Part shown: piece by piece, positions 1-15,993 of the stretch
Numbering within the stretch: position 1 is the stretch's first letter
Layout: every line of letters begins with the position of its first letter
Source: a virus
Taxonomy: Duplodnaviria > Heunggongvirae > Uroviricota > Caudoviricetes
Reading direction: 5' to 3' (one strand)
Length of the DNA: 17,400 bases
IMG/VR virus record: IMGVR_UViG_2802429221_000010
The notes under the pieces: generated by a model
Told to the model about the DNA's origin: nothing
The model's input: the letters and a program-made list of their open reading frames with translations, nothing else
Database searches by the model: none
Made by a program: the position numbers and the translations under genes

Positions 1-1215
1 ATGCTGCTTTCAGACCTTGCTATCAGACGCGCGAAGCCGAAAGAAAAGGCTTATACGCTCAATGACGGTAACGGGCTTTCGTTACTCATTGAGCCGAACG
101 GCTCGAAAGGGTGGCGACTACGTTACAGGTTTGCAGGAAAGCCCAAAATGTTGTCATTGGGCGTGTACCCTGATGTGTCTCTGTCTGATGCCAGGGCGGC
201 AAGGGATGAGGCTAAAAGGCTTCTTGCTGGTGGTATAAATCCAAGTGAGGCCAGAAAAGCCCAAAAGCGAGAACAGGCGAGCAAATTTGGCAATACTTTT
301 GAGGGTATCGCTCGCGAATGGTACGAAAAGCGGATCGACAGGTGGTCATCGTCATACGCCGAGGAAATGATCGAGACGTTTGAAAAAGACGTTTTTCCGT
401 ACATTGGCGGTAGGCCGATCGCAGAAATTAAGCCGATGGAATTGCTGGCGGTTCTTTCCCGTCTTAATGACCGTGGTGCGACTGAAAAATTGCGTAAGGT
501 TCGCCAGCGATGTGGCGAGGTGTTCCGGTACGCAATCATCACCGGACGCGCCGAATATAATCCAGCCCCTGACCTGGTGAGCGCATTTGCTCCACATAAA
601 AAAGAGCATTACGCCTATCTGAAGGCCGACGAACTGCCGGAATTTTTCCGCGTTTTTAATACGTACACCGGAAGCCAGATCGTCAAACTGGCAATGCGGC
701 TATTAATTCTGACAGGTGTCAGACCCGGGGAATTACGGCAGGCAGAATGGCGGGAGATCGATTTTGATAATCGTTTGTGGGAAGTGCCTAAAGAACGAAT
801 GAAGATGCGCCGTCCGCATTGTGTGCCATTACCAGAACAGGCGATAAAAATACTGGAGCAGTTAAAAAACATGACAGGCCAGTATCAGTTTATTTTCCCC
901 GGTCGTATTCACCACAGTAAGCCAATGAGTGAAATGGCGATGAATGTACTCATTCGTCGTATTGGCTACGCCGGGCGCGTCACTGGTCATGGATTCCGGC
1001 ACACCATGAGCACCATTTTGCATGAACAGGGCTATAACACTGCGTGGATAGAAACACAGCTTGCGCATGTTGATAAAAACTCAATTCGTGGCACGTACAA
1101 CCATGCGCAATATCTGGATGGTCGCCGGGAAATGCTCCAGTGGTACGCCGACTATATGGATTCGCTTGAGCATGGCGGAAATGTTGTTTACATAAAATCT
1201 GAAAAATTAAATTGA
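1..1215 (+). CDS. int: Tyrosine site-specific integrase, P4-type (phage integrase family)
   Basis: 404-aa ORF. N-terminal stretch LSDLAIRRAKPKEKAYTLNDGNGLSLLIEPNGSKGWRLRYRF matches the P4-type integrase arm-binding domain. C-terminal catalytic box GHGFRHT (H-x-x-R) plus downstream Tyr (TYNHAQY). ORF starts at window position 1, so the true start could lie upstream. Confidence 0.93.
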   Translation: MLLSDLAIRRAKPKEKAYTLNDGNGLSLLIEPNGSKGWRLRYRFAGKPKMLSLGVYPDVSLSDARAARDEAKRLLAGGINPSEARKAQKREQASKFGNTFEGIAREWYEKRIDRWSSSYAEEMIETFEKDVFPYIGGRPIAEIKPMELLAVLSRLNDRGATEKLRKVRQRCGEVFRYAIITGRAEYNPAPDLVSAFAPHKKEHYAYLKADELPEFFRVFNTYTGSQIVKLAMRLLILTGVRPGELRQAEWREIDFDNRLWEVPKERMKMRRPHCVPLPEQAIKILEQLKNMTGQYQFIFPGRIHHSKPMSEMAMNVLIRRIGYAGRVTGHGFRHTMSTILHEQGYNTAWIETQLAHVDKNSIRGTYNHAQYLDGRREMLQWYADYMDSLEHGGNVVYIKSEKLN

Positions 1216-2252: not shown

Positions 2253-2453
2253 ATGGATAAGCAAAATTTAATTCGTATGCCAGAAACCATGCGCCGTACA
2301 GGCTATGGTAGGGCATGGATCTATAAACTCATTGCCCAAGGGCGTTTTCCTAAACCTGTAAAAATTGGCTCGCGAGCGATTGCTTTCGTTGAGAGTGAAA
2401 TTGATGAGTGGATTAATCAGCGTATTGCGGAATCACGCGGAACAGCTACCTGA
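2253..2453 (+). CDS. alpA: AlpA-family transcriptional regulator / excisionase-like HTH protein
   Basis: Translation LIRMPETMRRTGYGRAWIYKLI...IAFVESEIDEWINQR parallels E. coli AlpA (ILRLPAVIQKTGMARATIYDWL...VGWIEAEIDEWLSQR). AGGAGA Shine-Dalgarno precedes the ATG at 2253; the ORF track start at 2208 lacks one. Confidence 0.85.
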   Translation: MDKQNLIRMPETMRRTGYGRAWIYKLIAQGRFPKPVKIGSRAIAFVESEIDEWINQRIAESRGTAT

Positions 2454-2531
2454 TTAAATGGCTACGGGGCCAGAAGCCCCAGCTATCCACCAGCAAATAA
2501 AAAGTAACTTAATTCGATAGCAGGAGTTTTT

Positions 2532-3332
2532 ATGAAACTGCGAAAAACGCCCGTACAGGGGCAGGGCTTCGTTCGGCCTGAAAACCAGAATCTGCAAAAT
2601 TTCGGCGAAATTATCCCGATTATTTCCGGCGTTATTGGCGGGAGTGAAACCACTATTGTTAGCGCCAGAGCGTTACATAAGGCGTTAGGTGTAGGGCGCG
2701 TTTTCCGTTCGTGGATCAAGGGGCGCATTGAAGAATACGGGTTCACGGAAGGCGTGGATTATGAGGTTGTTGAATATTTGAGCCGACCCGATCCGGTGAG
2801 CGCAAAATCTCGCCAGCAAACCGCTCTTGAGTACATCATCACAGTGAACATGGCAAAAGAACTGGCGATGGTCGAACGCACCGAACAGGGCCGCGCCGTT
2901 CGTCAGTACTTCATCAAATGCGAGGAGGAGCTACACAAGGTAGCGCCAGTGCGTTCCGCAGCGTTACGCCGGGAACTGAAAGCCCGTATCACAGTTGCCA
3001 GCTACTTTAAGCCAATGTGTGCCGCGTTGGAGGCGTACCGGGCTGAACTGGGTAAAAACACGTTCCAGCACCACTACACCACGGAAGCCAATATGCTGGC
3101 GCGTATCGTGCTGGGTGGCATGACTGCAAAACAGTGGGCGCAGGCGAACGGCATCACAGGCGAACCACGCGACCACATGAGCACGTTGCAGCTTGAGCAC
3201 CTTTCTTACCTTGAGCAGAGCAATATCACGCTGATTGAGTTAGGCCTGGACTACCACCAGCGGAAAGCTGAATTAATTCGTCTTTCGCAGCGTTGGTTAG
3301 CCCGTCGCATGGAGGAAAACAGCCATGTGTAA
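2532..3332 (+). CDS. Phage antirepressor-like protein (AntA/AntB-type N-terminal domain)
   Basis: 266-aa ORF with AGGAG Shine-Dalgarno. Segment SARALHKALGVGRVFRSWIKGRIEEYGFTEGVDYEV resembles the AntA-family core. Domain assignment is from memory, not a search. Confidence 0.65.
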   Translation: MKLRKTPVQGQGFVRPENQNLQNFGEIIPIISGVIGGSETTIVSARALHKALGVGRVFRSWIKGRIEEYGFTEGVDYEVVEYLSRPDPVSAKSRQQTALEYIITVNMAKELAMVERTEQGRAVRQYFIKCEEELHKVAPVRSAALRRELKARITVASYFKPMCAALEAYRAELGKNTFQHHYTTEANMLARIVLGGMTAKQWAQANGITGEPRDHMSTLQLEHLSYLEQSNITLIELGLDYHQRKAELIRLSQRWLARRMEENSHV

Positions 3333-4863: not shown

Positions 4864-5080
4864 TGCAACATGGCCTGATGCAGCGGTAGACGCTATCAAA
4901 ACGCTGATGGATTCACTTATTGAGATTTCTGCTATCGCTGGTGTGGCGCATAAACACGCAGCCAGAGAATCAGAATGCATCTCCCATTATTTAGCATTTG
5001 TGCAGCTGAAAGCCGATCAGGCACTGGATAAGGCCGGAAAAATTATCATGGCTGATGTGCAGGAGGTGCACCATGCATAA
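4856..5080 (+). CDS. Hypothetical small protein, 74 aa
   Basis: AGGAGG 6 nt upstream of the ATG. Start overlaps the upstream stop and its stop overlaps the next start (ccATGCATAA). Begins MCNA, like the ORF at 3325. Confidence 0.5.
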   Translation: MCNATWPDAAVDAIKTLMDSLIEISAIAGVAHKHAARESECISHYLAFVQLKADQALDKAGKIIMADVQEVHHA

Positions 5081-5438
5081 CCTGTCAATTTCTGACCTTA
5101 ACAGCATTCAGTTTGACGAGAAATTTACCGGGCAGCTACTGGTCAATGTGGAGAATGGACGCGTGGTAAGTAATTATCACCTGCCGGATGGTGCAATTGC
5201 CGGAAGCGTTGAAGCATTGCTGGAGCTGGCAGAACGTGCGCGACTGATTAAGCCGTTAACGTGCCATCACGATGATAATCTGCATTTTACCGGACGCATG
5301 GTGAGTCACTACGAAAACGGCGTTGAAGTATCCTGCGAACGTCTGCGTGATGATTGCTGTTTCGGCACATTGCCGGAATTTATCGAATTGCTGACCAGTT
5401 GCGGTTATCAGGTCATTCAGGGGGGGAAACATGCGTGA
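5073..5438 (+). CDS. Hypothetical protein, 121 aa; paralogue of the 5657-5857 product
   Basis: AGGAGG 6 nt upstream of the ATG at 5073. N-terminus MHNLSISDLNSIQFDEKFTGQLLVNVENGRV aligns with MHNHEAHVPVVLNVPDDFTGRVLVYLDKGKV of the 5657 ORF. Confidence 0.6.
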   Translation: MHNLSISDLNSIQFDEKFTGQLLVNVENGRVVSNYHLPDGAIAGSVEALLELAERARLIKPLTCHHDDNLHFTGRMVSHYENGVEVSCERLRDDCCFGTLPEFIELLTSCGYQVIQGGKHA

Positions 5439-5664
5439 TGATCGTTTTAATTCCCTGAAACAGGAGTTTGATGGCGCACCGGAAGATACATCGGGCGCAT
5501 TGTTGAACGTTGCTGACATGATGAAAGCTGCATATTTTCTTATCAATACCAATGGCTACAAGTCAGAGGGTGAAATGATTCTTAGTATTGCGTCGGACTA
5601 TGCGGAATATGTGGCAGAGGCGCGTTACAGAAGAAAATTCACGGAGGATATAAGCCATGCATAA
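5431..5664 (+). CDS. Hypothetical small protein, 77 aa
   Basis: GGGGGG before the ATG. Start overlaps the upstream stop (ATGCGTGA) and stop overlaps the next start (ccATGCATAA). Confidence 0.5.
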   Translation: MRDDRFNSLKQEFDGAPEDTSGALLNVADMMKAAYFLINTNGYKSEGEMILSIASDYAEYVAEARYRRKFTEDISHA

Positions 5665-5857
5665 TCATGAAGCGCATGTACCCGTAGTGCTTAATGTGCC
5701 AGATGATTTCACCGGACGCGTACTGGTTTACCTGGATAAAGGGAAAGTGAAATCACAACGCCGACTGAAAAGTAATGAAATTTTGGGTTCTCCTGAGTTT
5801 TTTTCTGAACTCTGTATTCGTGCAGAAATAAAACCGGAACTGCTGACAGGAAAATAA
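5657..5857 (+). CDS. Hypothetical small protein, 66 aa; paralogue of the 5073-5438 product
   Basis: GGAGGA 8 nt upstream. Shares the MHN start and DFTG(Q/R)(L/V)LV motif with the 5073 ORF. Confidence 0.55.
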   Translation: MHNHEAHVPVVLNVPDDFTGRVLVYLDKGKVKSQRRLKSNEILGSPEFFSELCIRAEIKPELLTGK

Positions 5858-5861
5858 AACC

Positions 5862-6152
5862 ATGAAAAAGAAAAATTCTGGCTTTACTGCCAGCGGTCTC
5901 TCTCGGCCTGAAATCAGACACGGAGATATTTACCGCGACACCATACGTGGGGGACGAGCGGTTATTTGTCATGTTACGCCAGAAAATATCACCTACCGCC
6001 GTGACGCTTATGAATATGACTGCATAATGCCGTGCCGTCAGTTTGAGCGTGATTTTATTCTGGTGGAGAACAAACAACAGGAAGCGACGAGACGTGCAGC
6101 CATGAATATTAAAAAAATCCGGGCAATGTTGGTTGCGGGAGGTAAGAAGTGA
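5862..6152 (+). CDS. Hypothetical protein, 96 aa
   Basis: Stop-bounded ORF immediately upstream of the primase; its TGA overlaps the primase GTG start (GTGA at 6149-6152). Confidence 0.5.
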   Translation: MKKKNSGFTASGLSRPEIRHGDIYRDTIRGGRAVICHVTPENITYRRDAYEYDCIMPCRQFERDFILVENKQQEATRRAAMNIKKIRAMLVAGGKK

Positions 6153-7954
6153 AAAACGCACCGAGTCTAAAATATCAGCCGAAGGATAAATTCACTGAGG
6201 TAATCATTTTTGCCGGGACGGATGCTTACGCCCATGCTCAACACTGGATTGAAAGTGAAGGACGAAAACACGGCGATAACGTGCCTCCTGTTTACCTGGG
6301 GCCAAAGCAACTGGCAGACCTGGCGAATATCCGCATTATTGACGAGAAACGCCGTTTTGCGCGTGTCTATATCGCGGGGGAGATAGAGCCAATCCAGATC
6401 AATACTATCGCTGAAAAGCTGGCGCTGGCTGGCGTACAGGACGCGAAATTATACAAAGGTATCACCGACCGGGAGCCGGAAAACTGGCGCGACTACCTGC
6501 AACGGATCCGCGAACAGGCAGAGAGTGGGGAAGTTTCAGCGATGAAATTAGCCACAAAAAATATTGACCTACCCAGGCCAGCACTAAATCAGATGGGAGC
6601 CAGCCAGAGAGGGGAAGTGTTACTTGAATATTATGGAAGAGCACTGGCTATAAATGATGATTCTGATGTAGTTCACCATTACAACGGAATTGTCTGGGTG
6701 CCTGTATCTGATAAGGAACTCCAGCGGTCTATGGCGAAGATTTTTATTGATGCTGGAATCAGTTATTCGCAAAACGCCATTAAATTTGCCGTAGACACAA
6801 TGAAATTGAGCCTGCCTGTTATGGGCGGGGCAGACAGGAATCTTATTGGATTCAGTAACGGGGTATTTGATACCCGGACGGGAAATTTTCGGGAGCATAA
6901 CAAAAATGACTGGTTGTTAAATGCCAGTGAATTACCGTTCAGCCCACCAGCAGAGGGGGAAACGCTGGCAACACATGCGCCGAATTTCTGGAAGTGGCTG
7001 CGTCGTTCGGTGGCAGATAATGATCGTAAAGCTGATCGCGTACTGGCGGCATTATTCATGGTACTGGCGAACCGGTACGACTGGCAGTTATTCCTTGAGG
7101 TAACAGGCCCAGGCGGAAGCGGTAAAAGTGTGATGGCTGAGATTTGTACCATGCTGGCGGGTAAGGCCAACACAGTATCGGCAAGCATGAAGGCTCTGGA
7201 AGACGCAAGGGAACGCGCGTTAGTAGTTGGCTTTTCGCTGATTATCATGCCGGATATGACTCGCTACGCTGGCGATGGTGCAGGAATTAAGGCAATTACT
7301 GGCGGCGACAAGGTGGCAATTGATCCGAAACATAAAGCCCCCTACTCCACACGTATTCCGGCAGTAGTGCTTGCGGTAAACAATAACGCCATGTCATTCA
7401 GTGACCGAAGCGGGGGGATCTCGCGTCGTAGGGTGATATTTAATTTCTCTGAGGTCGTACCGGAGAACGAACGCGATCCCATGCTGGCGGAAAAGATAGA
7501 AGGCGAACTGGCGGTAGTGATTCGCCATTTGCTAACACGATTTACCGACCAGGACGAAGCTAAAAGACTACTTTATGAGCAGCAAAAATCAGAAGAAGCG
7601 CTGTTGATAAAGCGCGAAGGTGATTCACTGGTGGACTTTTGCGGCTATCTGATGTCGTTGGTTAAATGTGAAGGAATGATGGTGGGCAATGCGGAAATAG
7701 TGCCATTTAGCCCGAGGCGATACCTGTATCATGCTTATTTAGCCTATATGTCAGCGCATGGCCTGGGAAAACCAGTATCACTGACACGCTTTGGTACTGA
7801 TATGCCAGGAGCTATGGCGGAATACGGAAAGGAGTATAAGCGGGCTAAATGCACTAAAGGCCCGGATAAAGGGCGAGTGATAACAAATGTTCTGTTAGAT
7901 GATGATGCTGATGGCTGGTTGCCAGCAGCTACAGGGATTAACGACAGAACATAA
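6149..7954 (+). CDS. Primase-helicase-type replication protein (P4 alpha / D5-like NTPase)
   Basis: 601-aa ORF with Walker A GPGGSGKS at 7106-7129 and a downstream hydrophobic strand ending in acidic residues (LIIMPDM). The N-terminal half is long enough for a primase-like domain. Immediately followed by an iteron array. Confidence 0.88.
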   Translation: MKNAPSLKYQPKDKFTEVIIFAGTDAYAHAQHWIESEGRKHGDNVPPVYLGPKQLADLANIRIIDEKRRFARVYIAGEIEPIQINTIAEKLALAGVQDAKLYKGITDREPENWRDYLQRIREQAESGEVSAMKLATKNIDLPRPALNQMGASQRGEVLLEYYGRALAINDDSDVVHHYNGIVWVPVSDKELQRSMAKIFIDAGISYSQNAIKFAVDTMKLSLPVMGGADRNLIGFSNGVFDTRTGNFREHNKNDWLLNASELPFSPPAEGETLATHAPNFWKWLRRSVADNDRKADRVLAALFMVLANRYDWQLFLEVTGPGGSGKSVMAEICTMLAGKANTVSASMKALEDARERALVVGFSLIIMPDMTRYAGDGAGIKAITGGDKVAIDPKHKAPYSTRIPAVVLAVNNNAMSFSDRSGGISRRRVIFNFSEVVPENERDPMLAEKIEGELAVVIRHLLTRFTDQDEAKRLLYEQQKSEEALLIKREGDSLVDFCGYLMSLVKCEGMMVGNAEIVPFSPRRYLYHAYLAYMSAHGLGKPVSLTRFGTDMPGAMAEYGKEYKRAKCTKGPDKGRVITNVLLDDDADGWLPAATGINDRT

Positions 7955-7981
7955 TACGAAATTTATAAGCTGAAACGTAAA

Positions 7982-8319
7982 GGTAGACGGTTGGTAGACA
8001 GATTCACTTAACCCTCTACCAACCATCTACCAATTAATATTTTGAATTATAAAGATATTTTCAATGTGGTAGAGAGGTAGACAGTTATTTCTATATTCCT
8101 AAACCACGGGGGGTATATAAAAAACAGATAGTTAAGGGGGCATTTTTTAAATTTCTCTTTTAACTGTCTACACTGTCTACCATTTAGTAAAAATCATTAA
8201 TTATCAATGTATTAATGCGGTAGACCGTTGGTAGACAGTTTGCAGATTGTTTTTTTGTTATGTGTTAATAACATTAAATAAATCAATCAATTATATCGGT
8301 AGACAGTTGGTAGACAGTT
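7982..8319. repeat. Iteron array / putative replication origin of the element
   Basis: Six copies, in both orientations, of a doublet of GGTAGACAG-like units: ggtagacggttggtagacag (7982-8001), inverted copy (about 8012-8033), ggtagagaggtagacag (8069-8085), inverted copy (8163-8181), ggtagaccgttggtagacag (8219-8240), ggtagacagttggtagacag (8298-8319). Interspersed with AT-rich spacers, directly 3' of the primase-helicase gene. Confidence 0.7.
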
Positions 8320-8337
8320 GTAACGATGGGGCAAAGC

Positions 8338-8868
8338 ATGACTAAGCTGACCATTAACAGAAAACCAAAAGGTATTTACGGCACGCCGCAGAAAACGACG
8401 CAGGCGGCGCAGCAGCAGGATAAAACCACATCGGCGCATAAAGTGATGCCCGGTAACCAGAAAGCGCAGCAGAAGCCCACAGGGGCAACACCGTGGCGGC
8501 ATATGACCAAACGGCAGCGAAAAAACCGCAGACGCGTTAACCGCCTCACTGAGTTGTGGCCTGAATTATTCAGCCGGGAAGCACCGAAGCCGCTTAAGGT
8601 GGGGATATTCGACGACCTGATGCAGGATCTCGCCGTCAGGGGGCTGGCATTCGGGCCAGGGGCATTGCGTGCGACGCTGGCATCTTATGCGCAGTGTCCG
8701 CGCTATTACCGCGCCTTAATGGCTGGTGGGGTACGCTACGACCTGAAATGCCAGCCGTGCGGCGAGGTGACACCACAGGAACAACAGGACGCAGAAACGC
8801 GGCTGGTTGCGCTGAATGAGAAACGCAAACGTCAGCGTCGGGCAGCAAAGGAGAAAACAGGCGCATGA
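8338..8868 (+). CDS. ProQ/FinO-domain RNA-binding protein
   Basis: Segment PLKVGIFDDLMQDLAVRGL...LRATLASYAQCPRYYRALMAGGVRYDLKCQPCGEVTPQEQ aligns with E. coli ProQ N-terminal domain (PLKIGIFQDLVDRVAGEM...[39 protein letters not shown]). N-terminal half is basic and low-complexity. Start could be 8326 or 8338. Confidence 0.8.
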   Translation: MTKLTINRKPKGIYGTPQKTTQAAQQQDKTTSAHKVMPGNQKAQQKPTGATPWRHMTKRQRKNRRRVNRLTELWPELFSREAPKPLKVGIFDDLMQDLAVRGLAFGPGALRATLASYAQCPRYYRALMAGGVRYDLKCQPCGEVTPQEQQDAETRLVALNEKRKRQRRAAKEKTGA

Positions 8869-9152
8869 TTCACGACAGCAAAGCGGAAGCTCTGGAAGCG
8901 CGTGGTCTGTACCGGAGAGCGGCGGCGCGGTGGGCTGAGGTCATCATGCTGGCGAATGATGACAAGGCACGGGAACAGGCGGCAAAACGTCGCGCGGAAT
9001 GTATCCACAAGGCAGCACGCCCACCAGCAAGGCAGGATAATTTCGGGGAGATGCGCAAAACCATCAGCCGGGCACATGCCGGGATGGGATTACATCAGCC
9101 CAATGGTGAGGCATTCAGGAAATACCAAAAAAAGAACAATTGTAGTCAGTAA
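8865..9152 (+). CDS. PerC-family transcriptional regulator-like protein
   Basis: 95-aa ORF with ATGA overlap onto the upstream stop. N-terminal SKAEALEARGLYRRAAARWAEVI resembles the PerC/Pch signature as I recall it; not checked by search. Confidence 0.6.
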   Translation: MIHDSKAEALEARGLYRRAAARWAEVIMLANDDKAREQAAKRRAECIHKAARPPARQDNFGEMRKTISRAHAGMGLHQPNGEAFRKYQKKNNCSQ

Positions 9153-9286
9153 CAGAGGATGGGATTCTCTTGGTTTTTTGTTGATGCTTTCTGAGGAAAT
9201 CTACTACGTTGCTGAGCAGATGAATATTCAATTGCATCTGGGTTCCTGATAAGATTAATCTGAATATTTTCATTTGGAATAGGGAT

Positions 9287-10429
9287 ATGAATAAAACTTT
9301 AATTGCAACATTAGTCGGTATAGTAATGTTAACCGGATGTGGGCCAGAAGAGTTAACTCCAGAACAGAAACAGGAAGTAGCGGCTCTTAAAGCTGAACTG
9401 TCGCAAACGGAAGGTGAAATATCAGCAGCTAAGGAAGTTGACCAGCAGTTTTCTGGTGGGTTGATAAAAAATCTGACAACAGCAAGACTGGAAATATTAG
9501 GAACTAATAAAGCGCTTTTGGAACAGCGTATTAATGCTATTGAATCAGGCGCCAAAATTGATGTTGTTGTATCTGGAGTAAAACCTGATCCTGAGCTTGC
9601 GGCTTCAATTAAAACTGAAATTGACAGCTTAGATGCAAAAATCAACGAAGCCAAAGCTGATGCTCGTCAGTATAGTGGTGGTCTGATAAAGGTACTAAAA
9701 TTATCTACTGTTGCCACTGAAGAGCAGACTATGGCAATGTTGCAGCAAAAGTACCTCACAGCCAAGTATGGCCTCGCTGAAGTTAAGCTGGCATCAGTAC
9801 AAGATAATGACGCAAAAAACAGTACTGAAACGGAAGTAACAGCCAAAAATTCCCAAGATCAACTTCCTTTACTCCCGCCAGCGGATGGTCCGTTTGGCTT
9901 AGAAGCCGGTCTTACACAGAAAAACATCGAAGATATGATCGGTGCTAAGCTCAAGCCACTACCAGACAGTGTGAATCTGTATACTTCTGATAAATTACCG
10001 AAGCAAAACGCAGATTTTGAAATGTATGGTTTGTTGATCTCCCCGAAAGCTGGTTTATGTCAAATACGGGCTTTAGGAAAAAATATTGATACTGATAGCT
10101 ATGGATTGGCTCTTAAATCCAAGTTTGAAGAATTGAGTAATTCTTTAAGTTCTCTGTATGGAAAGGCTGATACTACAGACTTTTTGCTGGCTGGTTCAAT
10201 TTGGAAAGATCCTCAGGACTGGATGAGGGGGCTAAACAAAAAAGAACGCTTCTTATCTGCCACATGGAAAGGAACAAAAGAAATACCATTAAAAAACAAT
10301 ATTGATACTATCTCTATTGAGGCCAGAGCGAACAATTCCACTCAGGGATATGTCTATCTGCAGTACTCATTTACAAATGACGAAATTTGTCAGGCAGAAA
10401 TTGAAGGGGCGAAAAAAAGTTCCCTTTAA
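9287..10429 (+). CDS. Lipoprotein, 380 aa, with internally repeated coiled-coil-like N-terminal region; function unknown
   Basis: Signal peptide with lipobox MNKTLIATLVGIVMLTGC. Two copies of the motif (Q/R)Q(F/Y)SGGLIK(N/V)L within helical, charged segments. AGGGA Shine-Dalgarno. Lower GC than the replication module. Confidence 0.8.
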   Translation: MNKTLIATLVGIVMLTGCGPEELTPEQKQEVAALKAELSQTEGEISAAKEVDQQFSGGLIKNLTTARLEILGTNKALLEQRINAIESGAKIDVVVSGVKPDPELAASIKTEIDSLDAKINEAKADARQYSGGLIKVLKLSTVATEEQTMAMLQQKYLTAKYGLAEVKLASVQDNDAKNSTETEVTAKNSQDQLPLLPPADGPFGLEAGLTQKNIEDMIGAKLKPLPDSVNLYTSDKLPKQNADFEMYGLLISPKAGLCQIRALGKNIDTDSYGLALKSKFEELSNSLSSLYGKADTTDFLLAGSIWKDPQDWMRGLNKKERFLSATWKGTKEIPLKNNIDTISIEARANNSTQGYVYLQYSFTNDEICQAEIEGAKKSSL

Positions 10430-10442
10430 ACAATCCGTGCAA

Positions 10443-10468
10443 AGCCCCTTAGTAAGGGGCTTTTATAT
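10443..10468 (+). terminator. Rho-independent terminator
   Basis: GC stem GCCCCTT / AAGGGGC with a 3-nt loop, followed by TTTTATATAT, 14 nt after the lipoprotein stop. Confidence 0.6.
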
Positions 10469-10494
10469 ATTAATGTCCAACGGGGGGGGATTAG

Positions 10495-10818
10495 ATGAAA
10501 GATAATCTAGAAAAACTAATTGAAAATACTTTAAAAGATATTCTATTAGCTAATGCTGCTCTAACATTCATTTTTGCAATACCAATGGCTATTATCAGTA
10601 GGCATGGGATGGGCATCACAATCTGGTTTATAACTGTGCTCATTGCACCTGCTCTGTGTGCAGTAGGTGCATGGCTTGTATCTCGAACATTCGGCCATGC
10701 TGAGGAGTTTTTTCATCGTCGGTGGGCTAAGCGAATTTATGTTTTTTATACTCTTGCGGCTGCCGAGTTTTTGCTTGTGTACTCAATCGCGCAAATAATG
10801 AAAAATCTGATGAAATAA
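10495..10818 (+). CDS. Small inner-membrane protein, 107 aa, two or three predicted transmembrane helices
   Basis: GGGGGGGA Shine-Dalgarno. Hydrophobic stretches ALTFIFAIPMAIIS, ITIWFITVLIAPALCAVGAWLV and IYVFYTLAAAEFLLVYSIA. Confidence 0.7.
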   Translation: MKDNLEKLIENTLKDILLANAALTFIFAIPMAIISRHGMGITIWFITVLIAPALCAVGAWLVSRTFGHAEEFFHRRWAKRIYVFYTLAAAEFLLVYSIAQIMKNLMK

Positions 10819-11096
10819 TTAACAAGTTATTATCATGGGGTTTGTGGCTGTTAACCTGCAGTGAGGCGACAATCGTGTATTTATAAAAACTTCCCCTTTT
10901 CACTCCCCGCTGTTTCTTCTGCTATTGCCTTTATGTTTGCATGCACCAACATCTGCCATACTTTTGCAGAAAAATCAGAGCATTCAGTGCCGAAGGTTGG
11001 TTTATTGATGCTTTTCGTTTCATTTATTGCAATTGTCTCTGGTATCATTTCAATTTGTGCAATAATTGCAATTATTGTCATTCAGAAGGGATCATC

Positions 11097-11264
11097 ATGA
11101 AAAATCACGGAGTAAAGCCAGTTTTACTTTCCCGGAGGCAGATCGAAGCCCTGCAACGCATCCAGGACGAAGAGCGTCAGAAATCTGTGCTTGGTGTGGC
11201 ACCGTCGATTCATGTTATCGCTCGGCAACTGATGGATAAGGCACTTAAAGAGGTGAGACTGTGA
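11097..11264 (+). CDS. Small putative DNA-binding protein, 55 aa, RHH-like
   Basis: AAGGGA 6 nt before the ATG at 11097. Sequence VKPVLLSRRQIEALQRIQDEERQ fits a strand-helix RHH pattern. The longer track ORF starting at 10941 has an implausible Cys/Phe-rich N-terminus. Confidence 0.45.
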   Translation: MKNHGVKPVLLSRRQIEALQRIQDEERQKSVLGVAPSIHVIARQLMDKALKEVRL

Positions 11265-11331
11265 AATTAAATATCAGAGTGGATAAACCCAGCTATGGCA
11301 GAAAAAAGAGAACAGCGAGGCATTCAGGGCG

Positions 11332-11532
11332 TTGCTGGTGGAAAATCTTCAGCACCGGTTCAGTGGAGAGTTGCCTGATGCTCTAGGGAAGAAACTGGAA
11401 TCCCTGACGGTGGAAATTGGCGATTATGGCTTTGTTGATGTTGAAAGCACGACTGCCAACACAGAAATCGTAAAACAGGTCGTCAATGATGTAATGAAAA
11501 CCACGCTTAGCCAGCCATCCTGGCGCAACTGA
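11332..11532 (+). CDS. Small hypothetical protein, about 64-66 aa, non-ATG start
   Basis: Open frame with only TTG (11332) or GTG (11338) starts. Acidic, globular-looking translation. Followed by hairpin AGGGGC...GCCCCT at about 11541-11566. Confidence 0.35.
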   Translation: MLVENLQHRFSGELPDALGKKLESLTVEIGDYGFVDVESTTANTEIVKQVVNDVMKTTLSQPSWRN

Positions 11533-11632
11533 ATCAGTAAGGGGCGGTTATTGCCCCTTTCCTCCATACCCACAACGCATTCCCTTTCCGCATGAAATTA
11601 TTTTTTTATCGTATATGCATGAGGTGAGCTAC

Positions 11633-12160
11633 ATGTTGATGAGTAAAGCCGAATACGCCAAATACAAAGGCGTAAGCCGCCAGACAGTTTACGACTGGAT
11701 CGAGAAAGGCGAAGTGATCATGTCTGGCAAAAAAATTGATGTGGATGCGACAGATCAGCGGAACAGCCCACCAGCACAGGGGAAAGACACCGTTTCTGAA
11801 ATGTGGCCAGAGAGAACGCTGGAAATGACGTGGGGCGAGTTCTGGAAAGCAGTTAAGGCCAGAGACGGTAAAATCCCTGCACCAGTAACGGACGATGACA
11901 TACGGCAGCGTGTGCTGAATGCAGCCGGGGAATTAGGCTGGGAAGTGCACTTTCTTGATGATGGTGCTATCTGCCTTGAGGATGATGAAGGACAGCATTA
12001 CTTTGAACAATACAATTTGCGGGGTAATGCCTGGCTGGCAATTCATATGCTGCGTTGTGAACTATGCTATGTTGCCAGCGATTGTCCCGATGAACAGGAC
12101 ACATGGAGTGAGGCAGGACTAAACGCCCTGGCTGAATGGGAAAAATCAGGCCATCAATGA
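11633..12160 (+). CDS. HTH-domain protein, 175 aa; excisionase/terminase-small-subunit-like N-terminus
   Basis: GAGGTGAG Shine-Dalgarno before the ATG at 11633. N-terminus SKAEYAKYKGVSRQTVYDWIEKGEV is an HTH of the type seen in lambda Nu1 and excisionase-like proteins. Immediately followed by a direct-repeat array. Confidence 0.7.
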   Translation: MLMSKAEYAKYKGVSRQTVYDWIEKGEVIMSGKKIDVDATDQRNSPPAQGKDTVSEMWPERTLEMTWGEFWKAVKARDGKIPAPVTDDDIRQRVLNAAGELGWEVHFLDDGAICLEDDEGQHYFEQYNLRGNAWLAIHMLRCELCYVASDCPDEQDTWSEAGLNALAEWEKSGHQ

Positions 12161-12164
12161 CCTC

Positions 12165-12458
12165 AAAAAGTGTCAAGTTGAGCAGCTTGCCAGGTTGACA
12201 CTTTACACTCTGAACGCGAAAAAGTGTCAACCTTGCTGGAAGCCGCGCCATTACTGGCCTTGTACCATATTCACCACGTCAAAAAACCGAAAAAATCGCG
12301 AAAAGTGTCAAGTTGCCATGCTTAGAAATGCCAGGGATGGTTAAGTTTTGTTAAGGTTTTTCCCGAAAAAGTGTCAAGTGTGTCAATCTGCGATATTAAG
12401 ATTTATTAAGGCCTTAAGCCGGAAAGTGTCAACCAGCCCCCTAAGATTTCCTAAGGTG
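12165..12458. repeat. Array of AAAGTGTCAA direct/inverted repeats interleaved with TTAAGNTTT-N-TTAAGG repeats; putative protein-binding region
   Basis: AAAAGTGTCAAG at 12165-12177; inverted TTGACACTT at 12195-12203 (9-bp arms, 18-bp spacer); further copies near 12219-12231, 12300-12313, 12366-12380 (double) and 12422-12433. Second family: ggttaagttttgttaaggtt (about 12339-12358), attaagatttattaaggcc (about 12394-12412), cctaagatttcctaaggtg (about 12440-12458). Confidence 0.6.
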
Positions 12459-12464
12459 TAAATC

Positions 12465-12647
12465 ATGACCATCACCGAAGCCGATATGCTGGAGATGATC
12501 CGCAGCATTGCCGGAGTCAAACAACCAGCAAGCAAAATTAACAGGTGTTCAGCGCCTGTTTCCGTTGTGCTGCAACAGGAATGCCACCAGCGGCGGGAAA
12601 ACGAAAAGGCGTACCAATGGACGAAGCCAAACAAGTTACGGCGTTAA
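12465..12647 (+). CDS. Small hypothetical protein, 60 aa
   Basis: AAGGTG 7 nt before the ATG, directly downstream of the repeat array, followed by a hairpin. Confidence 0.4.
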   Translation: MTITEADMLEMIRSIAGVKQPASKINRCSAPVSVVLQQECHQRRENEKAYQWTKPNKLRR

Positions 12648-12655
12648 TTAGGAAT

Positions 12656-12680
12656 ACGGGCTGAGATAGCCCGCATTTTG
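12656..12680. terminator. Hairpin, possible bidirectional terminator between convergent genes
   Basis: CGGGCT-gagat-AGCCCG stem-loop followed by ATTTTG on the + strand, between the + strand ORF ending 12647 and the - strand ORF ending 12682. Confidence 0.4.
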
Positions 12681-12681
12681 C

Positions 12682-12939
12682 TCACAGCTTGTTATACATT
12701 TTTCCAGCGAAGTCATGAACCGCCTGAGGAATATCCGACGGCGTACCTAGCATTGTTGGCGCATCGGAAACAAAGAACATGATCGCTTCTTTGATTTCTT
12801 CGAAAGATGGGGTAGGGGTAATGCGCTTGAGATTTGAAACCGCCCGTCGGAACTCCGCCGTATCCATTGGATGCCTGCTAAACCACGTTGGACGAGAAGC
12901 CCAACATTTTACTGCTTCTTTCACCTTAGTGTTCATCAT
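12682..12939 (-). CDS. Hypothetical protein, 85 aa
   Basis: Minus-strand ORF with AAGGAAAA Shine-Dalgarno just upstream of ATGATG. Convergent with the + strand genes; no family recognised. Confidence 0.5.
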   Translation of the reverse strand: MMNTKVKEAVKCWASRPTWFSRHPMDTAEFRRAVSNLKRITPTPSFEEIKEAIMFFVSDAPTMLGTPSDIPQAVHDFAGKMYNKL

Positions 12940-13424
12940 TTTTCCTTTTGCTTATTACCATACAAAGCATGTGGAAAGAGAAGATTAACATGGAAAATAT
13001 GGAGTTGGTGAGCAAATGAAAGGTACTGGTAGCCTGTCGACATCTATCAGCATGATGATGTGAGGCCGTATCAGTGGCGGAAACCGAACAGGCTGCGACG
13101 GTGAGCGGAGCGTTACGGTAAGCCAACAGCCAAGCCAAACATTAAGTCTACAGGTAAGGTTGTTTTTTTGCAGGTGGCATTAATTTGTATGTTGGTTTAA
13201 GGAGCATTTTTATTGAAACCCGCCTTAATTGGTCGTTTTTGTATGTCATGTGGTTCTAAGATAACCGCTAAGTTAAGCAACAGATGTGGTTGGGGGCGAG
13301 CAGGTTAACAGTCTATCTATCAAATTTAATGTTTATTATTTGATAATTAGTGGTTTTGTATCCAGTTTTGTGAGAGATTGTTAATGCATTTAACATCTGA
13401 TGGTTTTTACTTAAGGGTTACATA

Positions 13425-14480
13425 GTGTCTACACAGAAAATTGAAGAAAAATTTACATCTGCACAAGATGCATTAGTAATTCAGCAATCCGATTTATCAT
13501 TAAAGTCACTTTCTGATATGGTTGAATTAGATGCAGTAGATATAAGTCCAAAATATCAGAGAAGGGAGCGTTGGACTGCGGAGAAAGAGTCAAGTTTGAT
13601 TGAATCATTCTTGCTAAACATCCCGGTCCCGCCAATTTATCTCGCAGAGGATAGATATGGAATCTACTCAGTAATAGATGGAAAGCAAAGAATAACGGCT
13701 ATAAATAAATTTTTAACAAATAAAATGAAACTCGTGGAATTAGAAAAATTTCCAGAGTTAGAAGGGTTCTATTTTAAAGACTTACCCCAACCTCTTTCTA
13801 ATGCATTAAGCATCCGACCATATTTAAGAGTGGTCACATTATTGCGCCAATCTGACCCAGACTTAAAGCATGAAGTCTTTCTGAGATTAAATAAAGCAGG
13901 AGTATCTTTAAATTCTCAAGAGATAAGAAATGTTGCTTTTAGAGGGGATTTAAATGATGCTCTTATTGAACTGTCGGATACTCCATTTTTAAAAGAAATG
14001 CTTAAATCAAATAAAAATACTAAAATTTACCAAGAAATGGGAGATGTTCAGTTTGTGTTGAGGTTTTTTACTGTGTTTGATTTGTGGGAAAATTTTCCAG
14101 GTAATATGGATAAAGCTATGGATCTATTTATGGCGAAAAAATCTCGCAGCTCAATTCAAGATGTTAACGAAATGAAGCGGTTATTTTTGCGCTCAATTCA
14201 TTTTTGCGAGACGGTGTGGGGTAATGATGCATACAAAAGAATTGATAACAGTCAACGCGTAATTCAAGGTATGTATGATGTCCAGATGGTTTGCCCTGCC
14301 TTTTTACAACAAAATGAATATGATCATGCCATGGAAAATGCTGCTGATGTAAGACGACTCTTAGTTGATGAACTTTCAAATAATGCGGATTTTCTTGAAT
14401 CAGTGACTCAGTTCACGTCTAACCCAAGAAATATTGCATATAGAATATCACACTTCTGTGACCTTCTGAGAAGAATTTAA
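13425..14480 (+). CDS. DUF262-domain protein (ParB/Srx-like NTP-binding domain as in GmrSD-type enzymes N-termini)
   Basis: GTG start with AAGGG 7 nt upstream. N-terminal motif ISPKYQRRERW (13548-13580) fits the DUF262 P-x-(F/Y)-Q-R...W box; DGKQRITA (13677-13700) fits the DGQQR box. AT-rich. Stop TAA 14478-14480 lies 1 nt before the next ATG. Confidence 0.85.
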   Translation: MSTQKIEEKFTSAQDALVIQQSDLSLKSLSDMVELDAVDISPKYQRRERWTAEKESSLIESFLLNIPVPPIYLAEDRYGIYSVIDGKQRITAINKFLTNKMKLVELEKFPELEGFYFKDLPQPLSNALSIRPYLRVVTLLRQSDPDLKHEVFLRLNKAGVSLNSQEIRNVAFRGDLNDALIELSDTPFLKEMLKSNKNTKIYQEMGDVQFVLRFFTVFDLWENFPGNMDKAMDLFMAKKSRSSIQDVNEMKRLFLRSIHFCETVWGNDAYKRIDNSQRVIQGMYDVQMVCPAFLQQNEYDHAMENAADVRRLLVDELSNNADFLESVTQFTSNPRNIAYRISHFCDLLRRI

Positions 14481-14481
14481 T

Positions 14482-15411
14482 ATGCCTATTCCAGCGAAGG
14501 ACAATTTGCTAAAAAGAATCCTGTCTGTAGATAATGCAACTCAACTACCAGCACTTATCGATAAAGATGTTATGCAGGAACAACACAATATCACAGCTAA
14601 TCTTCTGAGAAAAGGCTTAGGTATAGTAGCATTTAATATTCTGGAAGATTTTATAAAATCCAGAACTATAGAAATGTTTGATTTTATATCTAATGCACGT
14701 GTGAGATTCGAGCAGTTACCCGATTCTTTTAGAATTGCAGCAACAAATGGTGCATTAAGAGGATTAGTATATCAGGCTGGATTAGAAAAGAAAAATAATG
14801 GAGATTGGTTGGCACTAATACATTCTGAGGCCAAAAGTATTTTTTCAACGTCGCAATTTCCTTATACATTATCTCGAGTATCACTTCTTTCAGATGGTTC
14901 TAATGTTGGACATGATGATATACCAGAAGTAATGAAGTGTCTTGATATAACTGGTGGGTGGAAGACATTACAAAAAATATCGAACGATATTGGTGGTGGT
15001 ACATTAGATCTGAATGCTGCTTATAAAAATATGTTTTTCGATAGAAATAGATGTGCTCATGAAGCAGGTTTTAATTATCCATATACCTCTCTCGATAATT
15101 CTTTAAATGACATTGTTACTATTGCTTCTGCATTTGACATAGCGTTAACTACTCGTTGCAGGTATATAGAAAAACAACCTAATTTACCGCTTTCAGCTCA
15201 TAAAGAAAAAGATCCGTTTTCATATCGGTTTTTAATCGCTGATGGAGATGTTTTTCGAGAGAAAAAATCATTAGAACCTGGTGCGAAAACAATAAAAAAA
15301 TGGAGTAATATCTCTGATGCACAATCTAATTTAATTCCTAAGCTAAGACTCCGCGATGAGTTTTTGATTTATATAGGAAAACAGAGAAGGCTTAGTGATT
15401 GGTATTTGTGA
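14482..15411 (+). CDS. Hypothetical protein, 309 aa, with a HEPN-like R-x4-H motif; partner of the DUF262 gene
   Basis: Tightly coupled to the DUF262 gene (TAAtATG). Contains FDRNRCAHEAG (R-x4-H at 15043-15060), compatible with a HEPN RNase active site. No DUF1524/HNH-like (D/E)H-x-x-P motif seen. AT-rich. Confidence 0.75.
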   Translation: MPIPAKDNLLKRILSVDNATQLPALIDKDVMQEQHNITANLLRKGLGIVAFNILEDFIKSRTIEMFDFISNARVRFEQLPDSFRIAATNGALRGLVYQAGLEKKNNGDWLALIHSEAKSIFSTSQFPYTLSRVSLLSDGSNVGHDDIPEVMKCLDITGGWKTLQKISNDIGGGTLDLNAAYKNMFFDRNRCAHEAGFNYPYTSLDNSLNDIVTIASAFDIALTTRCRYIEKQPNLPLSAHKEKDPFSYRFLIADGDVFREKKSLEPGAKTIKKWSNISDAQSNLIPKLRLRDEFLIYIGKQRRLSDWYL

Positions 15412-15844
15412 TATTTTTTATATAGGGTTTTATATTTTTGTAAAATCCTATAATCCATAAAATGAATATTATATTTAATAATGTCTTGATTAGGCTAACG
15501 GCATAATTATGATAGGTGATTTTGTTATAATAAATTTTTTGAACAAAAATAGTTGTTTACCCCAACTCCTCAAACACCAAAATAATTTACTGCAGATCAC
15601 TGTACGTTGCCTTCATATCATTTTGGGCCACATTCTTGATATTCGTCAGATTAGGTATACTGGTAAGACTATTTGTTGATGGCGGCGAGTCACAACCGTT
15701 CCCTAGGTCTACCACTCAACTACAGAGGCTACTACGGTAGCCACTACGATTAACTACGCGATCCCGATATGGTGATTCCTATATCGGGTTATCTGTGCTC
15801 ATCCATCAGCTTGATCACGGATAACAGGGGATGTGTAATTCCCA

Positions 15845-15872
15845 AGCGAGTGATAAATGTGTATAGAAATGT
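15845..15872. repeat. Tandem direct repeat (AATGTGTATAGAA x2) in AT-rich intergenic region
   Basis: aaatgtgtatagaaatgtgtatagaatt read directly, upstream of the - strand HilA-like gene; a possible regulator binding site. Confidence 0.35.
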
Positions 15873-15993
15873 GTATAGAATTTATTTTAGAACTCGCGAA
15901 TGTGCCTTTATTACTGGTTTTGGGAGGTGTTGTGTTGTTCCCTTCGCCGCTCCAGTTTTTTTACGCCCTCATATATTATTTCTTTATAACGCA

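What the first reader, a model, noticed from the sequence alone, without database searches (positions are those of the whole stretch)
13425..15411. Tightly coupled DUF262 + HEPN-like two-gene module in AT-rich accessory DNA: candidate anti-phage system
Both DUF262 signature boxes are readable in the first gene (PKYQRRERW and DGKQRITA). The second gene starts 1 nt after the first gene's stop and carries an R-x4-H motif (RNRCAH) of HEPN type, with no DUF1524/His-Me motif that would mark a classic split GmrSD. The pair is markedly AT-rich and preceded by about 290 bp of AT-rich promoter-like DNA. DUF262 is the N-terminal module of GmrSD, BrxU and SspE-type defence proteins (established knowledge); a DUF262 protein with a separate putative HEPN partner is not an arrangement I can assign to a named system. 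Whether it is element cargo or chromosomal flank is unresolved.
Basis: partly seen in the sequence, partly recalled or inferred. Interest (0 to 1): 0.85.

Follow-up and report, generated by a model that had tools for sequence, protein, structure and literature searches.

The report
DUF262–HEPN phage-defence cassette, PD-T4-2 class
The two genes are real and form a conserved, mobile pair: a DNA-sensing DUF262 NTPase and a HEPN RNase. The pair belongs to an already described and experimentally validated kind of anti-phage system (PD-T4-2 class), and here it is cargo in the variable slot of an integrative island.

Summary

The pair keeps the same order, with a -1 to +1 nt junction, in Cronobacter, E. 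coli, Pseudomonas, Aeromonas, Pontibacter and Chitinophaga. It usually sits in prophage hotspots.

In this window it is island cargo. It lies between conserved island DNA (ending about 13165) and the conserved right end with attR (15757-15955, tRNA-Gly). Sibling E. coli islands carry GAPS1, or an MTase+DUF262+HEPN trio, in the same slot.

PD-T4-2 (Vassallo 2022) is exactly DUF262 + RiboL-PSP-HEPN, and the ParB/HEPN operon link was noted in 2013.

It is nevertheless a distinct subfamily. The HEPN partner is about twice as long and has an extra C-terminal domain of unassigned fold. No PADLOC PD-T4-2_B match was found for it or for any of 59 relatives.

Verdict: a new variant of a known kind, of moderate interest. 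The mechanism is inferred, not shown.

The parts
13165..13424 (+). Cargo-specific, AT-rich upstream region (GC 0.34); presumed promoter region of the cassette
   Evidence: Homology with the sibling E. coli island (APEC E123) stops at about 13165. It is not shared with the 80%-identical P2-prophage copies of the cassette, whose DNA homology starts at 13426. No + strand sigma-70 consensus hit at the scan threshold. A weak TTGTGA-17-TAACAT at about 13368-13396 was read by eye only.
13425..14480 (+). Gene 1: 351-aa ParB-type DUF262 NTPase domain plus C-terminal helical (ParBDB-like) domain; predicted sensor/switch
   Evidence: Pfam GmrSD_N 4.9e-23. PADLOC NsnA 7.3e-65 over the full length, PD-T4-2_A 3.5e-33 over residues 28-273. 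phrog_2598 1.3e-64 over the full length. Motifs YQRRERW, DGKQR and F152..N156 are invariant in 39 homologues. 2345 homologues found, 60-65% identical across phyla.
14482..15174 (+). Gene 2, N-terminal HEPN domain (residues 1-231) with R188-N-R-C-A-H193; predicted RNase effector
15175..15411 (+). Gene 2, C-terminal domain (residues 232-309), beta-beta-beta-alpha-beta-beta, fold unassigned; includes the stop codon
15421..15452 (+). 14-bp stem hairpin right after the gene 2 stop; terminator-like end of the mobile cassette
   Evidence: MFE -14.6 kcal/mol, z -3.6 against shuffles. Conserved in the P2-prophage copies with a compensatory G-C to A-T change. DNA homology with those copies ends at 15450. 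There is no U-tract, so terminator function is inferred.
15757..15955 (+). Conserved right end of the island, including the attR core (15940-15955, TTCCCTTCGCCGCTCCA, the 3' end of tRNA-Gly)
   Evidence: 93% identical to the right end of the E. coli HNSQ2209 island at glyU. The empty site (regulator, tRNA-Gly(ccc), actS) in L023 aligns up to the tRNA 3' end and then diverges.
1..1215 (+). Tyrosine integrase of the island that carries the cassette
   Evidence: Pfam Arm-DNA-bind_3, Phage_int_M and Phage_integrase. 98% identical to the integrase next to tRNA-Gly in E. coli HNSQ2209.

Best explanation
The locus is a two-gene anti-phage defence cassette of the DUF262 + RiboL-PSP/MAE_28990-type HEPN class, whose validated prototype is PD-T4-2. 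It is carried as exchangeable cargo in the attR-proximal hotspot of a satellite-like integrative island inserted at tRNA-Gly.

Proposed mechanism, with the basis for each step:
1. Gene 1 is a ParB-fold DUF262 NTPase joined to a helical DNA-binding (ParBDB-like) domain. It binds DNA and acts as the infection sensor and NTP-driven switch, as the DUF262 module does in GmrSD, BrxU and SspE. The domain assignment is shown here; the sensing role is inferred by analogy.
2. Gene 2 is translationally coupled to gene 1 and is made in step with it. It is a HEPN ribonuclease whose invariant R-x4-H site forms on dimerisation. The fold and motif are shown here; RNase activity and dimerisation are inferred from the HEPN superfamily.
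3. When gene 1 recognises phage DNA or a phage replication product, the HEPN partner is released or activated. It then cleaves RNA (tRNA, mRNA or rRNA) and stops phage production by growth arrest or abortive infection. This step is inferred.
4. The C-terminal beta-alpha domain of gene 2 probably docks the effector to the sensor or to its RNA substrate. This step is speculative.

In short, the system resembles GmrSD with the cis DUF1524 DNase replaced by a trans-encoded HEPN RNase.
For: - Domain identity of both proteins.
- Co-conservation: same order, junction of -1 to +1 nt, and R-x4-H and DGxQR retained in 7 of 7 loci examined across Gammaproteobacteria and Bacteroidota.
- Residence in known defence hotspots: the P2/186-like prophage slot between gpA/DinI and the portal gene, a degraded P2-like prophage in Cronobacter, and the variable end of a Pf-type filamentous prophage in P. 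aeruginosa.
- In this window the cassette is bounded by conserved island DNA and attR. The same slot in sibling E. coli islands holds GapS1, or MTase+DUF262+MAE_28990-HEPN.
- Cassette-type mobility: 80% DNA identity with the prophage copies over 13426-15450 only, that is, the two ORFs plus the hairpin.
- Literature: PD-T4-2 = DUF262 + HEPN_RiboL-PSP, validated against T4. RiboL-PSP-HEPN listed as 'operon with ParB'. DUF262 acts as an NTPase sensor in GmrSD and SspE.
Against: - There is no experiment on this pair or on any member of its ~305-aa HEPN subfamily.
- The mechanism of PD-T4-2 itself is uncharacterised, so sensor/effector roles are assigned by analogy.
- The Pfam HEPN score of gene 2 is only just above the gathering cutoff (28.6 against 28.4).
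- PADLOC PD-T4-2_B does not match gene 2 or any of 59 relatives, and PD-T4-2_A matches gene 1 only moderately (113 bits over residues 28-273).
- No physical interaction between the two proteins could be tested.
- No promoter was detected by the consensus scan.
- No methyltransferase is present here, so how self is distinguished from non-self is unknown.
Confidence: 0.7

Rival explanations
1. A toxin-antitoxin-type addiction or abortive-infection module. The HEPN protein is a constitutively active RNase toxin that the DUF262 protein neutralises stoichiometrically. The main role is stabilising the island or prophage, and phage defence is at most a side effect.
Against: The upstream partner is a 351-aa, highly conserved NTPase with intact catalytic motifs. 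This is unlike small labile antitoxins and unlike the MNT nucleotidyltransferases that pair with HEPN toxins. Gene 1 is more conserved than the presumed toxin (61-65% against 39-46%). The validated relative PD-T4-2 was isolated for phage protection and also protects in its native strain.
Confidence: 0.15
2. A degenerate or minimal Menshen system, in which an NsnA sensor has lost NsnB and NsnC and acquired an unrelated neighbour.
For: The best PADLOC match of gene 1 is NsnA: 7.3e-65, aligned over 346 of 385 model positions.
Against: No ABC-ATPase (NsnB) or inPIN-effector (NsnC) gene is present; gene 2 follows after 1 nt, and the island ends about 530 bp later. The two-gene layout is constant in all 7 loci inspected. 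The NsnA model also matches other phage DUF262 proteins paired with HEPN at 1e-55 to 1e-61, and one with an uncharacterised partner at 8.5e-32, so it is a generic DUF262+ParBDB model. The Menshen survey treats PD-T4-2 as a separate DUF262 system.
Confidence: 0.03
3. A modification-dependent (type IV-like) or methylation-linked restriction module in which DNA, not RNA, is the real target. DUF262/ParB itself would be the nuclease, with HEPN as a regulatory or RNA-binding accessory.
For: ParB/DUF262 domains were first annotated as nucleases. Related cassettes are linked to DNA methyltransferases: the E. coli E189/PD23 islands, and N6_Mtase directly upstream of the pair in Pontibacter. PD-lambda-5 is described as a compacted RM+Abi system.
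Against: In characterised systems the DUF262 module is an NTPase sensor, and cleavage is done by DUF1524, which is absent here. The HEPN catalytic R and H are invariant, which argues for an active RNase rather than an inactive accessory. There is no MTase in this window.
Confidence: 0.1
4. Not a defence system: an island-encoded ParB-like DNA-binding protein and its partner that serve the element's own replication, partition or regulation.
For: Gene 1 has the ParB fold (weak TIGR00180 and phrog_1033 ParB matches). It lies on an element that has its own primase and regulators.
Against: The cassette is exchangeable cargo, absent from sibling islands with 97% identical cores. It occurs on unrelated elements (P2-like, Pf-like, chromosomal sites) and in different phyla. 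It has foreign base composition.
Confidence: 0.03

Closest known systems
PD-T4-2 (Vassallo et al. 2022, E. coli ECOR65; PD-T4-2A DUF262 + PD-T4-2B HEPN)
   Same: A two-gene operon with DUF262 (PF03235) first and a RiboL-PSP-type HEPN (PF18735) second. No DUF1524. Carried by mobile elements or hotspots in Enterobacteria.
   Different: - PD-T4-2 is 1540 bp in total with a B protein of about 165 aa. Here the pair is 1987 bp with a 309-aa B protein that has an extra ~78-aa C-terminal domain.
- The PADLOC PD-T4-2_B model matches neither gene 2 nor any of 59 relatives. PD-T4-2_A matches gene 1 at only 113 bits over residues 28-273.
- A direct alignment to the ECOR65 proteins could not be made, because the sequence was not retrievable with these tools.
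MTase + DUF262 + MAE_28990/MAE_18760-HEPN cassettes (Anantharaman et al. 2013; E. coli E189/PD23 islands)
   Same: A DUF262/ParB protein immediately followed by a HEPN of the RiboL-PSP/MAE_28990 clade. It occupies exactly the same island slot in sibling elements.
   Different: A third gene (a DNA methyltransferase) is present there and absent here. The DUF262 proteins are only 28% identical. The HEPN partner is 253 aa, lacks the C-terminal domain, and shows no detectable profile similarity.
Menshen (NsnA-NsnB-NsnC)
   Same: Gene 1 has the NsnA architecture (ParB-DUF262 + ParBDB) and matches the NsnA HMM over its full length.
   Different: There is no NsnB ABC ATPase and no inPIN-type NsnC effector. 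The effector here is an N-terminal HEPN.
GmrSD / BrxU / SspE
   Same: An N-terminal DUF262 NTPase with QRxxxW, DGxQR and FxxxN motifs, followed by a helical DNA-binding middle domain.
   Different: Those are single polypeptides with a C-terminal DUF1524 His-Me DNase or nickase. Here no DUF1524 is present, and the predicted effector is a separate RNase.
PD-lambda-5A (ParB + C-terminal HEPN-like region, with MTase PD-lambda-5B)
   Same: It combines a ParB-fold domain with a RiboL-PSP-like HEPN segment. 2 of 59 gene 2 relatives weakly match its PADLOC model.
   Different: It is a fusion protein with a canonical ParBc rather than DUF262, and it is paired with a methyltransferase. Gene 2 of the window does not match it.

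Membership tests
PD-T4-2 (DUF262 + HEPN) | Two adjacent co-oriented genes, with the DUF262 protein upstream and the HEPN protein downstream | tested here: met
   13425-14480 then 14482-15411, with a 1-nt spacer. The same layout is seen in 7 homologous loci.
PD-T4-2 (DUF262 + HEPN) | Protein A belongs to PF03235 (DUF262/GmrSD_N) | tested here: met
   E 4.9e-23, 82.7 bits against a cutoff of 33.2. PD-T4-2A HHpred gives PF03235 at 99.7%.
PD-T4-2 (DUF262 + HEPN) | Protein B is a RiboL-PSP-type HEPN (PF18735) with R-x4-6-H | tested here: met
PD-T4-2 (DUF262 + HEPN) | Recognised by the PADLOC PD-T4-2_A profile | tested here: inconclusive
   3.5e-33, 113 bits, residues 28-273 only. This is weaker than the NsnA profile (218 bits) and similar to unrelated phage DUF262 proteins.
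PD-T4-2 (DUF262 + HEPN) | Recognised by the PADLOC PD-T4-2_B profile | tested here: not met
   No match at E <= 1 for gene 2 or for any of 59 family members.
PD-T4-2 (DUF262 + HEPN) | Protection against T4 or T-even phages | not testable with these tools
   Requires plaque assays.
HEPN superfamily | All-alpha up-and-down helical bundle with an R-x4-6-H motif at a conserved position | tested here: met
Menshen (NsnABC) | NsnA-like ParB-DUF262 + ParBDB protein | tested here: met
   PADLOC NsnA 7.3e-65, residues 7-350 aligned to model positions 36-381 of 385.
Menshen (NsnABC) | NsnB ABC-type ATPase gene following NsnA | tested here: not met
   The next gene is the HEPN protein. No ATPase family matched. 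No further ORF of 60 aa or more lies before attR.
Menshen (NsnABC) | NsnC effector with an N-terminal inPIN domain | tested here: not met
   The gene 2 N-terminus is a helical HEPN, not a Rossmann-like PIN fold.
GmrSD / BrxU / SspE | C-terminal DUF1524 His-Me nuclease domain | tested here: not met
   No PF07510 or other nuclease family in either protein at E <= 1. There are only weak N-terminal matches to SspE/HEC-05/06-type models in relatives.
Dazbog (DzbAB) | Match to DzbA/DzbB profiles | tested here: not met
   No Dazbog model among the PADLOC matches at E <= 1.
HEPN-MNT toxin-antitoxin | Adjacent minimal nucleotidyltransferase antitoxin | tested here: not met
   The partner is a DUF262 protein. 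No nucleotidyltransferase (NTP_transf) family matched.

The most novel reading that the evidence does not exclude
The ~305-aa HEPN+CTD subfamily, paired with its unusually conserved DUF262 partner, may be a mechanistically distinct two-component system. In this reading a DNA-bound, NTP-driven ParB-like switch directly licenses an RNase with no ATPase transducer in between. The previously undescribed C-terminal beta-alpha domain would be the signal receiver or the RNA-substrate selector; its weak likeness to MutS domain I and the tRNA-endonuclease N-domain is the only lead. That would give a minimal, tractable model for how DUF262 sensors couple DNA recognition to a trans-acting effector, which is still unknown for PD-T4-2, Menshen and Dazbog.
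Probability: 0.3. Interest if true: 0.55.

Novelty: new variant of a known kind. Interest (0 to 1): 0.35.

Why it matters
DUF262 sensors are well understood only when fused to DUF1524 DNases. How they control separate effectors in PD-T4-2, Menshen and Dazbog is an open question.

This subfamily is compact (two genes) and well delimited: 495 clusters at 50% identity. It is spread across phyla and moves as a cassette between P2-like prophage hotspots, filamentous prophages and satellite-like islands.

The PADLOC 2.0 models tested here do not match the HEPN partner, so annotation with those models would under-count this kind of system. A dedicated HMM pair would improve defence-system censuses.

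The pair would also be a convenient experimental entry point for DNA-sensing to RNA-cleaving signal transfer. It is not a new principle, because the architecture is named and validated.

Tried and rejected
- Looked for the exact pair in 5,426 complete E. coli genomes. It is absent, and only the flanking island DNA matches. A 65%/44%-identical homologous pair occurs in 3 genomes.
- tblastn of gene 2 against phage and plasmid collections gave no match. Gene 1 gave only distant phage DUF262 proteins.
- Tried to find true PD-T4-2 among phage-borne DUF262 pairs (P2_4B2, Klebsiella phage ST16-OXA48phi5.4, Ralstonia phage YO101_3, E. coli phage 689R6). None scores as PD-T4-2 by PADLOC. Three of the four do have RiboL-PSP/MAE_28990 HEPN partners.
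- PDB sequence searches for both proteins found nothing.
- First looked for attR with the thrW (tRNA-Thr) core of a sibling island and found no match. The island turned out to use tRNA-Gly.
- Rfam found no RNA family in the window. ARAGORN found no tRNA.
- A profile-profile comparison of the gene 2 family with the E189 MAE_28990 HEPN was uninformative.
- Menshen, GmrSD, Dazbog and HEPN-MNT memberships were rejected (see the membership table).
Full report
**Observation**

The two ORFs are at the stated coordinates.

Gene 1 (13425-14480, GTG start, 351 aa) contains PKYQRRERW (residues 42-50) and DGKQRITA (85-92). It also contains the third DUF262 motif, F152-x3-N156. Pfam GmrSD_N/DUF262 matches at E 4.9e-23. 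In an alignment of 39 homologues all three motifs are invariant.

Gene 1 ends with TAA at 14478-14480. One T follows, then the ATG of gene 2 at 14482.

Gene 2 (309 aa) carries RNRCAH at residues 188-193. No DUF1524 or other His-Me nuclease family matched either protein, even at E <= 1.

The pair has GC 0.344, against 0.468 for the core of the surrounding element.

The only weak point is the 'promoter-like' label. The consensus scan found no + strand sigma-70 site in 13165-13424, and there was no excess of hits over shuffles.

**Is gene 2 a HEPN protein?**

Yes, on four lines of evidence.
- Pfam HEPN_RiboL-PSP matches residues 35-222, just above the gathering cutoff (28.6 against 28.4 bits).
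- Nearly all of the 93 homologues found carry the precomputed PF18735 assignment. Several are named 'HEPN' or 'RiboL-PSP-HEPN domain-containing protein' by NCBI or UniProt.
- In a 59-sequence alignment R188, A192 and H193 are invariant.
- An AlphaFold2 model built on that alignment is confident (pLDDT 91.7, pTM 0.90). It shows a helical domain (residues 5-231) with the R-x4-H motif at the C-terminal end of helix 177-193.

**Co-conservation**

In every locus inspected, a 351-353-aa DUF262 protein is followed by a 305-309-aa HEPN protein. The junction ranges from a 1-nt overlap to a 1-nt spacer. DGxQR and R-x4-H are retained in all of them. The loci are:
- Cronobacter dublinensis, in a degraded P2-like prophage.
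- P. aeruginosa, at the variable end of a filamentous (Zot-encoding) prophage, with three different right flanks.
- Pontibacter, just downstream of an N6 methyltransferase.
- E. coli, in a P2-like prophage between gpA/DinI and the portal gene.
- Chitinophaga.
- Aeromonas veronii.
- A metagenomic 186/P2-like prophage.

Gene 1 is markedly more conserved than gene 2: 61-65% against 39-46% identity in the same genomes. The C-terminal domain of gene 2 is the most variable part, at 27-45%.

The HEPN+CTD family is well delimited. It gives 495 representative clusters at E <= 1e-3, nearly all 300-320 aa and matched end to end.

**Context in the window**

The window is an integrative island. Its recognisable genes are:
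- a tyrosine integrase (1-1215);
- an AntA-type antirepressor;
- a D5_N/DUF5906 primase (6149-7954);
- a ProQ/FinO protein;
- a PerC-like protein;
- an HTH protein with weak similarity to a small terminase.

The core (2346-13160) is about 97% identical to islands in E. coli genomes. Homology to the APEC E123 island stops at about 13165.

The integrase end is 98% identical to an island at tRNA-Gly (glyU), next to actS/xdhA, in E. coli HNSQ2209. Window 15757-15955 matches the right end of that island at 93%. It contains the attR core TTCCCTTCGCCGCTCCA (15940-15955), which is the 3' end of tRNA-Gly.

Genomes that encode the identical 468-aa regulator (window 15994-17400, minus strand) show the empty site: regulator, tRNA-Gly(ccc), actS, xdhA. 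Their alignment to the window breaks exactly at the tRNA 3' end.

The DUF262/HEPN pair is therefore island cargo, in a variable slot of about 2.6 kb (13165-15756).

The same slot in sibling islands holds:
- GapS1 in APEC E123;
- a DNA methyltransferase + DUF262 + MAE_28990-type HEPN trio in E189 and PD23;
- two uncharacterised genes in strain 537-20.

The slot therefore behaves as a defence-type hotspot.

The closest relatives of the cassette (90% and 83-84% protein identity) lie in P2-like prophages. DNA identity of about 80% with them runs only from 13426 to 15450. That stretch covers the two ORFs plus a conserved hairpin (15421-15452, z -3.6, with one compensatory change). The unit that moves between elements is this cassette.

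**Comparison with known systems**

PADLOC gives NsnA (Menshen) at 7.3e-65 and PD-T4-2_A at 3.5e-33 for gene 1, and nothing for gene 2.

*PD-T4-2.* The literature settles the architecture question.
- Vassallo et al. 2022 list PD-T4-2 as 'DUF262, HEPN', a two-CDS system of 1540 bp from ECOR65.
- Their HHpred table assigns PD-T4-2A to PF03235 and PD-T4-2B (aligned to residue ~163) to PF18735 HEPN_RiboL-PSP at 97.8%.
- Deleting the system in its native strain restored T4 plaquing.
- Anantharaman et al. [quoted passage not shown]
- Li et al. 2025 list PD-T4-2, Dazbog and Menshen as the DUF262 systems without DUF1524, all mechanistically uncharacterised.

The arrangement is therefore named and validated.

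*Membership at the profile level is not met.* PD-T4-2_B matches none of 59 family members. PD-T4-2_A matches gene 1 no better than it matches other phage DUF262 proteins whose partners are 220-258-aa RiboL-PSP or MAE_28990 HEPNs. The NsnA model is evidently a generic DUF262+ParBDB detector.

*Other systems are excluded.*
- Menshen: there is no NsnB ATPase and no inPIN NsnC.
- GmrSD/BrxU/SspE: there is no DUF1524.
- Dazbog: there is no profile match.
- HEPN-MNT: there is no nucleotidyltransferase partner.

I could not retrieve the ECOR65 sequences for a direct alignment.

**Mechanism**

What is shown here: the domain identities, the intact catalytic and NTP-binding motifs, the tight coupling, co-inheritance, cassette mobility and hotspot residence.

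What is inferred from established knowledge of DUF262 (an NTPase sensor in GmrSD, BrxU and SspE) and of HEPN RNases:
1. Gene 1 binds DNA and acts as an NTP-dependent infection sensor.
2. It licenses the HEPN dimer to cut RNA.
3. RNA cleavage stops phage production.

Speculative: the C-terminal domain acts as a docking or substrate-selection module.

Linked methyltransferases in related cassettes hint that DNA modification status may be what is read. This window has no methyltransferase.

The rivals are scored lower, for the reasons given under each: a TA-type addiction module, a DNA-targeting restriction module, degenerate Menshen, and an element housekeeping function.

**Verdict**

This is a new variant of a known kind. 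It is a well-conserved long-HEPN subfamily of the DUF262+HEPN (PD-T4-2) class, and the PADLOC 2.0 models tested here do not match its HEPN partner.

Interest is moderate (0.35). It is useful for annotation and as a compact model for DUF262-to-effector signalling, but it is not a new principle.

Noticed in passing
window 1246-2154 (+): A 302-aa, very AT-rich (GC 0.316) orphan ORF directly after the integrase, with no Pfam, PADLOC or PHROG match. Sibling E. coli islands carry other genes in this position (for example a 'protein kinase'), so this looks like a second cargo slot, possibly holding another uncharacterised defence gene.
   Followed up: partly
L020 1092-4190 (E. coli E189) and L021 2797-5895 (E. 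coli PD23): Sibling islands carry a DNA methyltransferase + DUF262 (370 aa, 28% identical to gene 1) + MAE_28990/MAE_18760 HEPN (253 aa) trio in exactly the slot that holds the pair in the window. Two different DUF262-HEPN systems compete for one hotspot.
   Followed up: partly
L013 20352-21950 (E. coli APEC E123): The same island slot holds a GapS1 family gene in this strain, where the island is integrated at tRNA-Thr rather than tRNA-Gly. The integrase module and the cargo are exchanged independently of the 97%-identical core.
   Followed up: partly
L012 7088-8353 (Aeromonas veronii): A 421-aa Ribonuc_L-PSP-domain gene lies convergent to, and immediately after, the DUF262/HEPN pair. This is notable because the HEPN family is named after fusions to L-PSP.
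   Followed up: no
window 15855-15878: A perfect tandem 12-mer, AAATGTGTATAG x2, lies in the conserved right end of the island, about 65 bp from attR. Similar GTGTATAG and GCGTATAG words lie between tRNA-Gly and the integrase gene in the HNSQ2209 island. These may be integrase arm-type binding sites.
   Followed up: no
window 15994-17400 (-): The chromosomal flank encodes a 468-aa OmpR/PhoB-type (Trans_reg_C) regulator, AT-rich (GC 0.328), next to yqeI/yqeJ-like genes in related genomes. It has no megablast-level match in 5,426 complete E. coli genomes, so the host is probably not E. coli sensu stricto even though the island core is 97% E. coli-like.
   Followed up: partly
window 3325-4863 (+): This 512-aa ORF is probably not a gene. 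In the near-identical E. coli islands the region is annotated with several small genes (YlcI/YnfO on the opposite strand, an Icd-like protein and others), and the translation looks low-complexity.
   Followed up: no
window 13425-15411 versus L002, L005, L008, L011, L012: The presumed sensor (DUF262) is much more conserved than the presumed effector: 61-65% against 39-46% identity, and 27-45% for the C-terminal domain. The cause is unexplained.
   Followed up: partly
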